From the NCBI RefSeq assembly GCF_009914755.1, contig NC_060933.1: a DNA stretch of 64,000 nucleotides; one strand, written 5' to 3'. How positions within the stretch are numbered: position 1 is the stretch's first letter; each line of letters begins with the position of its first letter. The DNA is from the human T2T-CHM13v2.0 reference genome, Homo sapiens. The notes beneath the pieces were generated by a model that had not been told where the DNA came from, searched no databases, and saw nothing but the letters and a program-made list of their open reading frames with translations. The translations under genes and the position numbers were made by a program. Shown piece by piece: positions 28,271 to 30,320 of this stretch.

Positions 28271-29035
28271 TGTCAGAGGCATGTGAACCAGAGCAACTCC
28301 ATCTTGAATGGGGCTGGGTAAAATCAGGCTGAAACCTACCGGGCTGCGTTCCCAGATGGTTAAGGCATTCTAAGTCGCACAGGATGAGACTGGAGGTCGG
28401 CACAAGGCACAGGTCATAAAGACCTTGCTGATAAAACAGGTTGCTATAAAGAAGCTGGTTAAAACCCAACAAAACTAAGATAGTGATGAGAGTAACCTCT
28501 GGTCGTCCTCACTGCTACACTCCCACCAGCGCCACGACAGTTCACAGATGCCATGGCAACGCCAGGAAGTTGCCCTATATAACCTAAAAAGGGGAGGCAT
28601 GAACTGCCGGGAGCAGGGCCAGCAGTTGGGAAAGTCCGGGCGGCCCTCCGTCTCAGGCTGGGAAGGCCCTTGTTTAGCATATCATCAAGAAATAACCATT
28701 AAAGTGGGCAACAAGCAGCCCTGGCTGCTATGTCTATGGAGTAACCACCCTTTTTTATTTGATGGAGTCTCACTCTGTCGCCAGGTTGGAGTACAGTGGG
28801 GAGATCTCGGCTCACTGCAACCTCCGCCTCCCAGGTTCATGTGATTCTCCTGCCTCAGTCTCCCGAGTAGCTGGGACTACAGGCACCGGCCACCACACCT
28901 GGCTAATTTTTTGTATTTTTAGTAGAGACAGGGTTTTACCAGGCTGGTCTCGAACTCCTGACCTCAGGTGATCCACCCGCCTCGGCCTTTTGCCCAAGAT
29001 CCAAGAACCCTCTCTTGGGGTCTGGATCGGGATCC
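28271..29035 (+). mobile_element. MER41A solo LTR (ERV1) with a foreign ~62-bp insert and a minus Alu (~28750-28988)
   Basis: Starts TGTCAGAGGCATGTGAACCAGAGCAACTCCATCTTGAAT, continues GCCATGGCAACGCCAGGAAGTTGCCCTATA...AAAAAGGGGAGGCATGAA, and ends AGATCCAAGAACCCTCTCTTGGGGTCTGGATCGGGA. GGGGAGG joined directly to CATGAA is the MER41A form lacking the MER41B GAS segment. Confidence 0.9.
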
Positions 29036-29959
29036 CACCATGATAACTGAACCAAAGAACAAGATCTGGGGTGAAGGGATGGGAGATGCTGTGAGACCAG
29101 GTGGTCAGGGACGGTGTCTCTGAGAAGGTGACGGTTAGGCTGAGACCTGAAAGCTGAGAAGGAGCCAGTCACTCCAAGGACAGGGGGCGGAGTGGCTCCT
29201 GGCTGAGAGAACAGCATGTGCCAGGGCCCTGTGTCAATGCCTGCTCCTGGTGGGGTACTGGGGAATAAAAAGTCACATCAGTCCCTGCCTCTCCTCAAAG
29301 ACAGGTGACCCACAGCGCTTCACATATCATTGCCCAGGACCAGCAACAATAGGCCTGGCCATTAGCAAGGGGATGAACAGACAGGGAAATACTACTGAAC
29401 AATGGCAGGGGAGGGCTACGGAGACAGGCCTGGACAGGGACAGGTCCCAAATAGTACGCTGGGCAGAAACCAGGAGAGGCAGAGTGCGTGCTCTGATTTC
29501 AGTTGGGTGAAAAGGCAAAACTGTCGGTGGTGATGGAGGTCAGGCTGGCGGTTCCCTCTGGAGGGATGGAAGCCATCGGCTGTCTTGCCAACAAACATGT
29601 AAGAAATTGTGGGTTATACGTTGAAGATCAGGGCATTTTACCAAACGTAAAATATACATCAAGAAAGTACTAAAAAGAAAAAGTACTAAAAATAAGAGAA
29701 GATACTATGTGGCCTACAAGGAAAGAAAGAATCCCCCTCCCCACAGCCCACCTCCTTCAAACCAGGAATCTCCTGGCAAGCTTTGTTCCGAGGTCAGCTT
29801 CGGGGCAGAAAACAACAGTCCCCGCTCCCTTCCAGAAAAACAACCCAAACCCCATCCCCCATCATCTACAGAGGATGGGGCTGGGGCCTTCCCCCTTCTC
29901 TTCTCCTCCCGGCTCCTTCCTCCTCCCTCCTAAGGCCCAAGGTCCAGAAGGGGGTCCCA

Positions 29960-30320
29960 GGGTGGGGACAGGGTGGTCCAGGAGCAGGTCTAGCAGTTGG
30001 GAAAGTCCGGGCAGCCCTCGGTGTCAGTCTGGGAAGGCCTGGGCCTCGCCCGCAGCTGGGCTGTATGTAACCCGAGCCTCTGGCTAAGCGGATTTCTCCC
30101 AGGGCAGGACCCCCTCCGGTTCTGGAATGCAGCCTGGGGCGGGAGGTGGAACTGAAGAGGGGGTAACAAAGGGTGACACCGCTTTGAAACTCCGCTTCCT
30201 GCCCCCCACCAGCCTCCAGCCTGAACAAACACGCCCTCTCCTCGCTGGGCCTTTGTTGGGAGAGGTGGGGCTGGCCCAGGGCTGCGGTGGCAGCTTCCGC
30301 CCCTGCCAGGGCAACCCCAG
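29960..30320. promoter_or_regulatory. Enhancer/promoter-like motif cluster
   Basis: kB-like GGGAAAGTCC (29999-30008), TEAD GGAATG, GC box GGGGCGGG, SOX-like AACAAAG and CTTTGTT, TCF-like CTTTGAA, ETS CTTCCTG; locally raised CpG. Confidence 0.5.

What the first reader, a model, noticed from the sequence alone, without database searches (positions are those of the whole stretch)
28604..30039. MER41A LTR has captured a 62-bp NF-kB-like module copied from unique DNA 1.37 kb downstream
Seen: 28607-28668 aligns without gaps to 29978-30039 at 55/62 identity, with an invariant 21-nt core AGCAGTTGGGAAAGTCCGGGC. The core holds a 9/10 match to the kB site GGGACTTTCC on the minus strand, plus TGGGAA (RBPJ/Ikaros core) and CAGTTG. 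The upstream copy sits between CATGAA and CCCTTGTTTAGCAT, replacing the TAATCCAC of the recalled MER41A consensus, with a short CC microhomology at the right junction. Known: MER41B LTRs act as IFN-gamma enhancers through tandem STAT1 GAS sites in a segment next to this position, and MER41A lacks that segment. Inference: a local templated repair event gave this GAS-less LTR a host-derived inflammatory module, so sequence flowed from host to transposon. All 7 mismatches lie outside the core, which hints at constraint but could be chance.
Basis: partly seen in the sequence, partly recalled or inferred. Interest (0 to 1): 0.85.

Follow-up and report, generated by a model that had tools for sequence, protein, structure and literature searches.

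The report
Old repair patch inside a retroviral LTR
A fossil retroviral LTR on human chromosome 9 carries a 60-base patch copied long ago from unique DNA 1.4 kb away, most likely an ordinary scar of DNA-break repair, and nothing found here shows that it acts as an NF-kB switch.

Summary
Window 28607-28668 and 29978-30039 match at 55 of 62 bases without gaps. They are the only two places with this sequence in the whole T2T assembly.

The upstream copy is private to one solo MER41-type LTR. None of 39 other scored copies covers it. All 29 fetched copies have about 10 nt there instead, and 18 of them read exactly TAATCCACCC.

The junctions show:
- an 8-nt deletion;
- 3 untemplated bases (CTG);
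- a 60-nt templated tract;
- a 2-nt CC overlap;
- no target-site duplication and no poly(A).

This is the signature of a break repaired with a templated patch. It matches the "class 2 templated sequence insertion" description, except that the donor is local. It fits polymerase-theta insertions poorly. The divergence of 11% (95% CI 5-22%) makes it nearly as old as the LTR itself.

The functional reading is not supported:
- A 21-nt mismatch-free run arises by chance in 33% of trials.
- The kB near-match fails GGGRNWYYCC.
- Such near-matches are no commoner than in shuffles, 6 found against 8.5 expected.

Binding, activity and primate orthologues could not be tested here. Verdict: a new example of a known kind of event, of modest interest.

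The parts
28271..28603 (.). Left part of a solo MER41-type LTR, up to the break point (...GGCATGAA).
   Evidence: 26-32 hits from the 29 fetched sister loci cover every base of 28271-28603, and 29 alignments end exactly at 28603. Identity to the 29 copies is 84.0-90.1%, median 87.1%. The family name is recalled and was not tested.
28604..28606 (.). Three bases (CTG) at the left junction. They match neither the LTR family nor the DNA just upstream of the donor, so they look like untemplated filler.
   Evidence: The donor's upstream flank reads ...GGGTGGT, and the alignment starts only at 28607.
28607..28666 (.). The templated tract: 60 nt copied from 29978-30037, in the same orientation.
   Evidence: 55 of 62 identity including the next two bases. 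None of the 29 sister loci covers any base of 28604-28666. GC is 0.72 here, 0.39-0.49 in the LTR and 0.66 around the donor.
28667..28668 (.). A CC that belongs both to the end of the donor match and to the LTR family's ...CACCC: a 2-nt junction microhomology.
   Evidence: sister copies read TAATCCACCC then CTTG. (22 alignments to sister copies restart at 28667).
28669..28756 (.). Middle part of the LTR, after the patch.
28757..28988 (-). An Alu-like element inside the LTR, standing where sister copies have about 64 nt of LTR.
   Evidence: SRP-RNA-like (Alu-type) match at 28762-28903 on the minus strand. Coverage breaks. In 27 sister copies a median of 64 nt lies between the parts matching 28756 and 28997, against 240 nt here.
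28997..29036 (.). Last recognisable part of the LTR.
   Evidence: 17-24 hits from the sister loci cover it, and 17 alignments end at 29036.
29978..30039 (.). The donor: a unique, GC-rich stretch from which the patch was copied.
   Evidence: 221 nt and 1561 nt around it match nothing else in the genome except the LTR patch, apart from an old repeat at 29072-29237. According to the hub's annotation (not checked by me) it lies inside the RefSeq 'enhancer' feature 29512-30157.

Best explanation
A chromosome break inside an already integrated, immobile solo MER41-type LTR was repaired with a patch. About 8 nt of LTR (TAATCCAC) were lost. A broken 3' end paired through a 2-nt CC overlap with unique DNA 1.37 kb downstream on the same chromosome. 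About 60 nt were copied there by DNA synthesis. The new end then came off and was joined to the other LTR end with 3 untemplated bases (CTG). The donor stayed intact.

The event is old, tens of millions of years and not much younger than the LTR. Since then the two copies have drifted apart by 7 substitutions. The patch is most likely a neutral repair scar, and its kB-like word came along by accident.

Shown: the copy, its uniqueness, its absence from other family members, and the junction anatomy. Inferred: the polarity (downstream to LTR), the break-repair route, DNA rather than RNA as the template, and neutrality.
For: - Only two genomic copies of the 62-mer exist.
- No other LTR copy carries it. 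Of 2362 first-look candidates 40 were scored, one of them the window's own copy. None of the 39 others covers query positions 165-227, and 36 of the 39 resume at 228-232.
- 29 of 29 fetched copies have about 10 nt there instead, and their coverage of 28604-28666 is zero.
- The patch has the donor's composition, not the LTR's: GC 0.72, against 0.66 at the donor and 0.39-0.49 in the LTR.
- The junctions show a microdeletion, a 2-nt microhomology, a 3-nt filler, no target-site duplication and no poly(A). This is the published description of class 2 templated sequence insertions at repaired breaks (passages of PMC5110952).
- A donor 1.37 kb away on the same strand favours a DNA template found by proximity. 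In the experimental system described in the same paper, insert origins mapped to 18 of 24 chromosomes with no preferred region.
- Age: the pair's p-distance is 0.113 (95% CI 0.047-0.219), or 4 of 53 at non-CpG sites. This LTR against 26 sister copies gives a median of 0.120.
- Neutrality: the clean 21-nt run has P = 0.33, and the kB-like word is no commoner than chance.
Against: - No outgroup genome was available, so polarity rests on parsimony and composition, not on an ancestral state.
- A single 60-nt GC-rich tract from 1.37 kb away is unlike the best-characterised polymerase-theta insertions. Those are 3-30 bp, have primary synthesis tracts rarely above 10 bp, are AT-rich and come from DNA flanking the break.
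- It also differs from the MMBIR insertions as one published tool defines them: inverted copies of templates within 100 bp. So the enzyme pathway is open.
- A 2-nt overlap is weak evidence of priming.
- An RNA template (a local nascent transcript) cannot be excluded.
- By the hub's annotation the donor lies in a RefSeq 'enhancer' feature, so the copied stretch might carry activity. Neutrality is a default, not a result.
- The sister copies used for dating are the best-scoring 29 of 2362 candidates, so their distances are biased low.
Confidence: 0.72

Rival explanations
1. The same repair patch, but templated by RNA. A transcript (for example an enhancer RNA) from the neighbouring GC-rich element was reverse-transcribed, or used directly, to bridge the break. 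This is what has been proposed for class 2 templated sequence insertions.
For: The junction features match class 2 insertions. Those are reported to be enriched for transcribed sequence and to be reduced by reverse-transcriptase inhibitors (passages of PMC5110952). The hub's annotation places the donor in a RefSeq 'enhancer' feature, and such elements are often transcribed (general knowledge).
Against: In the experimental system of that paper, insert origins mapped to 18 of 24 chromosomes without regional preference, whereas this donor is 1.37 kb away. No transcript is annotated over the donor in the hub's table. No RNA family or stable fold is present there, although that says little about a plain transcript.
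Confidence: 0.15
2. The patch gave a GAS-less LTR a working NF-kB/RBPJ-type inflammatory module, and the identical 21-nt core is held by selection in both copies.
For: Both copies keep CGGACTTTCC, 9 of 10 to the classical kB word. It also fits a relaxed Rel-type pattern, GGNNWTTCC (that pattern is recalled). The LTR and its relatives have no GAS site. The donor lies in an annotated 'enhancer' (hub annotation).
Against: - The site fails GGGRNWYYCC on both strands.
- 9-of-10 matches number 6 in the window against 8.5 expected, and 91 of 100 shuffles have at least 6.
- The relaxed pattern occurs 14 times in 64 kb.
- A clean run of 21 or more arises in 33% of random placements of 7 mismatches.
- TGGGAA and CAGTTG are 6-mers, expected by arithmetic about once per 2 kb counting both strands.
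- By the hub's list the LTR copy lies outside the annotated enhancer features.
- MER41B LTRs are reported to carry a RELA motif of their own (passage of PMC12212084), so a patch is not needed for this family to meet NF-kB.
Confidence: 0.07
3. Reverse polarity. The sequence first arose or arrived in the LTR and was later copied to 29978-30039.
For: Without an outgroup, the alignment itself is symmetric.
Against: It needs an extra event of unknown source, because there is no third copy in the genome. The 62-mer's GC content of 0.72 matches the downstream context (0.65-0.66) and not the LTR (0.39-0.49). The LTR side shows a deletion and filler bases, the marks of a recipient.
Confidence: 0.03
4. 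Both copies derive from a third source, such as a low-copy repeat or gene fragment, that is no longer recognisable in the human genome.
For: It cannot be excluded for old events. The search tool warns that it skips very common words.
Against: Searches with 62, 221 and 1561 nt find only this pair for that stretch. There is no Rfam match. The two copies lie 1.37 kb apart in the same orientation, which an outside source would not explain.
Confidence: 0.02

Closest known systems
Class 2 templated sequence insertions / polymorphisms (TSI, TSIP; Onozawa and Aplan), read as passages of PMC5110952
   Same: The donor is left intact. There is no target-site duplication and no poly(A). The junctions show a microdeletion, a microhomology and non-templated bases. 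The event is read as a patch at a repaired double-strand break in the germline.
   Different: Published cases draw on distant, often transcribed donors, and an RNA intermediate is favoured. Here the donor is 1.37 kb away on the same strand. The event is fixed and old (11% diverged) rather than polymorphic.
Polymerase-theta end joining with locally templated insertions (TINS), read as passages of PMC7165422
   Same: An insertion copied from nearby DNA at a break, started at a very short microhomology, with loss of a few bases.
   Different: TINS are 3-30 bp, their primary synthesis tracts are rarely over 10 bp, they are AT-rich and they are templated from DNA flanking the break. This is one 60-nt tract, 72% GC, from 1371 nt away.
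MMBIR / replicative template switching with templated insertions, read as passages of PMC8421209; short-range template switches in great apes, PMC7954356, seen only as a search listing and abstract start
   Same: A polymerase switches to a nearby template at a microhomology and then returns. Such events are found as inherited germline variants in humans.
   Different: The tool in that paper targets inverted copies within 100 bp. This copy is direct and 1.37 kb away. Only one junction has an overlap, of 2 nt, and the other has filler bases.
Filler-DNA repair of breaks in primate evolution by mitochondrial fragments (numts), PMC2567098, seen only as a search listing and abstract start
   Same: Natural chromosome breaks in the primate lineage were sealed by end joining with a foreign stretch of DNA.
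   Different: There the filler is a captured organelle fragment, not a copy synthesised from a nearby chromosomal template.
MER41 LTRs as immune enhancers: the STAT1 sites of MER41B, lost in MER41A by a 43-bp deletion (passage of PMC7778262), and a RELA motif in MER41B (passage of PMC12212084)
   Same: The same LTR family, and the same question of which factor sites a copy offers.
   Different: In those cases the sites come from the retroviral sequence itself and are shared by many copies. Here a single copy gained host DNA, and no binding is shown.

Membership tests
MER41-type LTR, GAS-less (A-like) form | Member of a multi-copy interspersed LTR family | tested here: met
   2362 first-look candidates in the genome. 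39 other scored copies are 87-90% identical over the first 164 nt of the query. 29 fetched copies are 84.0-90.1% identical over 333 nt.
MER41-type LTR, GAS-less (A-like) form | Match to the curated MER41A consensus (Dfam/Repbase) | not testable with these tools
No repeat-family library was on hand.
MER41-type LTR, GAS-less (A-like) form | Lacks the STAT1 (GAS) sites that MER41B has (a 43-bp deletion, per a passage of PMC7778262) | tested here: met
   No TTCNNNGAA in 3321 nt around the LTR. 0 of 30 copies (this one plus 29 sisters) have one in the part aligned to 28271-28603. Where the 43-bp segment would lie was not determined.
MER41-type LTR, GAS-less (A-like) form | Solo LTR, not part of a provirus | tested here: met
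   No second copy of any LTR part in the 64-kb window. The flanks 27949-28252 and 29037-29400 match none of the 29 sister loci.
Class 2 templated sequence insertion | Inserted stretch is a copy of another genomic place, which stays intact | tested here: met
Class 2 templated sequence insertion | No target-site duplication, no poly(A) tract | tested here: met
   The flanks read ...GGCATGAA and CTTGTTTAGCAT. The insert starts CTGCCGGG and ends GGAAGGCC.
Class 2 templated sequence insertion | End-joining marks at the junctions: microdeletion, microhomology, non-templated bases | tested here: met
   8 nt lost, a CC overlap and a CTG filler.
Class 2 templated sequence insertion | Donor in a distant region, and an RNA intermediate | tested here: not met
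   The donor is 1371 nt away. The RNA intermediate is not testable here.
Polymerase-theta templated insertion (TINS) | 3-30 bp, short synthesis tracts, AT-rich, template in DNA flanking the break | tested here: not met
   A 60-nt single tract, GC 0.72, template 1371 nt away.
MMBIR templated insertion as defined for MMBSearch | Inverted copy of a template within 100 bp, flanked by microhomology | tested here: not met
   A direct copy, 1371 nt away, with a 2-nt overlap at one junction only.
NF-kB (kB) binding site | Fits the consensus GGGRNWYYCC | tested here: not met
   Neither copy is among the 12 matches in the window. The site is a 9 of 10 match to GGGACTTTCC, with the first G replaced by C.
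NF-kB (kB) binding site | Occupied by Rel proteins, with stimulus-dependent activity | not testable with these tools
   No ChIP-seq, ATAC or reporter data were on hand.

The most novel reading that the evidence does not exclude
The 60 nt were copied out of an active regulatory element and carried a working Rel-family (or other) factor site into a GAS-less LTR. This made a second, LTR-borne copy of a host enhancer module 1.37 kb from the original, and both cores have been kept by selection since before the apes and Old World monkeys split. It would be a documented case of regulatory sequence moving from host DNA into a transposon fossil by break repair, the reverse of the usual direction.
Probability: 0.07. 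Interest if true: 0.55.

Novelty: new member of a known kind. Interest (0 to 1): 0.25.

Why it matters
If the plain reading holds, this is a clean, datable, fixed example of a locally templated break-repair patch in the human germline. It is longer and comes from farther away than textbook polymerase-theta insertions. That makes it useful as a worked case for surveys of such scars, which ordinary alignment pipelines score as unexplained insertions.

It also carries a caution for work on transposon-derived enhancers. A factor site inside an annotated LTR need not come from the retrovirus.

It does not change what is known about MER41 or NF-kB unless binding and activity are shown.

Tried and rejected
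- Chance similarity: rejected.
- The 62-mer as part of a MER41 subfamily or any repeat: rejected. There are two genomic places only. None of the 39 other scored copies and none of the 29 fetched copies has it.
- A longer or gapped homology around the pair: none found.
- A small-RNA gene or structured RNA as the copied unit: there is no Rfam match on either copy. The only hits in 27000-31500 are Alu-type, plus one weak miRNA-like match at 31279-31411 with E 0.47. The folds are no better than shuffles, with z from +0.50 to +1.45.
- Constraint on the core: not supported (P = 0.33).
- Enrichment of kB-like words: none.
- Primate orthologues: no other primate genome is held. The tool states that the assembly 'has no relatives here'. 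The insert was therefore dated only from divergence.
- No search was made for a published description of this particular locus. The paper searches were made, and none of the listed titles concerns it. Supplements of PMC12212084, which show the MER41B RELA motif, were not opened.

Full report
**1.

The window contains one direct repeat in 27500-31000. Positions 28607-28668 and 29978-30039 are 62 nt long, 89% identical and 1371 nt apart. The seven differences lie at positions 3, 12, 14, 36, 43, 46 and 51, which leaves 21 identical bases in the middle. Gapped local alignment of the surrounding 160 nt, under a strict and a soft scoring scheme, returns exactly the same block, so the homology extends no further on either side.

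This is not chance. The whole assembly (3.1 Gb, 24 contigs) holds only these two places, at E 1.9e-23 and 5.7e-14. The tool warns that very common words are skipped. Searches with 221 nt and 1561 nt around the downstream copy gave the same answer for this stretch.

**2. What surrounds it**

*The LTR family.* The upstream copy lies in a member of a large interspersed family. A 321-nt query spanning it raised 2362 first-look candidates, of which 40 were scored. One was the window's own copy. The 39 others match the first 160-164 positions of the query at 87-90%. 36 of them match again from query position 228-232 onward. None covers 165-227, which is window 28604-28666.

*What sister copies have at the insertion point.* I fetched 29 of these copies. 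All 29 have 9-17 nt between ...GGCATGAA and CTTGTTTAGCAT. 18 contain exactly TAATCCACCC, and the other 11 differ by a few bases. Mapping all 29 loci back onto the window gives this layout:

| Window positions | Content |
|---|---|
| 28271-28603 | LTR |
| 28604-28666 | No coverage by any sister copy |
| 28667 to about 28756 | LTR |
| About 28757-28988 | Alu-type element on the minus strand |
| 28997-29036 | LTR |

*Solo, GAS-less LTR.* No part of the LTR recurs in the 64-kb window, so it is a solo LTR. It has no GAS word (TTCNNNGAA) in 3.3 kb, and neither do the 29 sister copies in the aligned part (0 of 30). This agrees with a review passage stating that MER41A lost the STAT1 site through a 43-bp deletion (PMC7778262). 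The names MER41 and MER41A are recalled, because no repeat library was available to test them.

*The donor region.* The downstream copy lies in GC-rich DNA (0.65-0.66). This DNA is unique in the genome, apart from an old interspersed repeat at 29072-29237.

**3. Junction anatomy and direction**

Compared with its sisters, the LTR lost TAATCCAC (8 nt) and gained 63 nt. The gain is three bases (CTG) that match neither partner, followed by 60 nt of donor sequence. The next two bases (CC) belong to both the donor match and the LTR. There is no target-site duplication and no poly(A).

Three things point to the downstream stretch as the source and the LTR as the recipient:
- The patch is 72% GC, like the donor's surroundings and unlike the LTR (0.39-0.49).
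- The deletion and the filler bases are on the LTR side.
- No third copy exists.

This is a strong inference, not a demonstration, because no outgroup genome could be consulted.

**4. Mechanism**

The junction features are those listed for class 2 templated sequence insertions: microdeletion, microhomology, non-templated bases, no duplication, no poly(A) and an intact donor. These are read as patches at repaired double-strand breaks in the germline (passages of PMC5110952). That paper favours reverse-transcribed RNA as the patch, and in its experimental system the insert origins mapped to 18 of 24 chromosomes.

Here the donor is 1.37 kb away on the same strand. I take that to favour a DNA template found by proximity. 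In this model a resected 3' end from the right-hand side of the break pairs at CC, is extended for about 60 nt, dissociates and is joined to the other end.

The best-characterised enzyme route fits poorly. Polymerase-theta insertions are 3-30 bp, have primary tracts rarely over 10 bp, are AT-rich and are templated from flanking DNA (passages of PMC7165422). The MMBIR insertions targeted by MMBSearch are inverted copies within 100 bp (passages of PMC8421209). I therefore commit to 'break repair with a locally templated patch' at about 0.9. Within that, I put a DNA template at about 0.75 and an RNA template at about 0.15. The polymerase remains open.

**5. Age**

The pair differs at 7 of 62 sites: p = 0.113, Jukes-Cantor 0.122, 95% CI 0.047-0.219. 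At non-CpG sites it differs at 4 of 53. Two of the seven differences are CpG in the LTR copy against CpA in the donor.

This LTR differs from 26 sister copies (alignments of 200 nt or more) by a median of 0.120 substitutions per site, range 0.090-0.134. The sisters differ among themselves by a median of 0.099 over 324 pairs. These sisters are the best-scoring 29 of 2362 candidates, so the figures are biased low.

If both kinds of pair diverge at similar rates, the patch is roughly 0.6 to 0.9 times as old as the LTR, with wide error. With recalled neutral rates of 1-2.2e-9 per site per year, that is about 28-60 million years. The prediction is that the patch is shared by apes and Old World monkeys.

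**6. Function**

Nothing here supports the 'NF-kB-like module'.
- The word CGGACTTTCC is a 9 of 10 match to GGGACTTTCC. Such matches number 6 in the window, against 8.5 expected from shuffles, and 91 of 100 shuffles have at least 6.
- The site does not fit GGGRNWYYCC on either strand. That consensus has 12 matches in the window, against 23 expected.
- The site does fit a relaxed Rel-type pattern that I recall, GGNNWTTCC. That pattern occurs 14 times in 64 kb.
- A mismatch-free run of 21 or more arises in 33% of random placements of seven mismatches, so the invariant core is no sign of constraint.
- MER41B LTRs are reported to carry their own RELA motif (passage of PMC12212084). I did not look for its counterpart in this copy.

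Two points keep function possible but untested. By the hub's annotation the donor lies in a RefSeq 'enhancer' feature (29512-30157). Both copies also retain a CpG in the core. By the same list the LTR patch lies in none of the listed features.

**7. Comparison with what is known, and verdict**

The thing works like a class 2 templated insertion and shares all of that class's junction features. It differs in having a local donor and in being ancient and fixed. It is not a typical polymerase-theta insertion or MMBSearch-type event.

'Capture by a transposon' overstates it. The LTR was already a fixed fossil and passed the patch to no other copy.

The finding is a real, well-defined and datable repair scar: a new member of a known kind, of modest interest. 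The functional claim stands at about 7%, pending primate alignments, ChIP data and reporter tests.

Noticed in passing
window 28757-28988 (with 28756 and 28997 as LTR edges): The same LTR carries a second insertion-with-deletion. A minus-strand Alu-type element stands where 24 of 27 sister copies have 44-71 nt of LTR (median 64 over all 27), and the Alu appears to lack its 5' end. Three sister copies (L004, L012, L032) have 373-385 nt at the same spot, which suggests independent insertions into the same T-rich stretch.
   Followed up: partly
window 27769-27908 and 28781-28920: An inverted pair of Alu-type elements, 140-nt arms, 76% complementary and 872 nt apart. It brackets the LTR break point at 28604. 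Inverted Alus are known to be fragile (recalled), so the pair might have provoked the break. The order of events is unknown.
   Followed up: no
window 52949-52958 (minus strand): The only perfect GGGACTTTCC in the 64-kb window. By the hub's table it lies inside the exon span 52649-53156 of other transcripts of the lncRNA LOC105376292.
   Followed up: no
window 29072-29237: An old interspersed repeat just downstream of the LTR. It has 21 matches on many chromosomes at 71-86% identity. The family was not identified.
   Followed up: no
window 28271-28603 (LTR body): A 2025 paper reports a RELA motif at positions 378-387 of the MER41B consensus (passage of PMC12212084). I did not check whether this copy keeps a counterpart near the patch, and the paper's supplements were not opened.
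   Followed up: no
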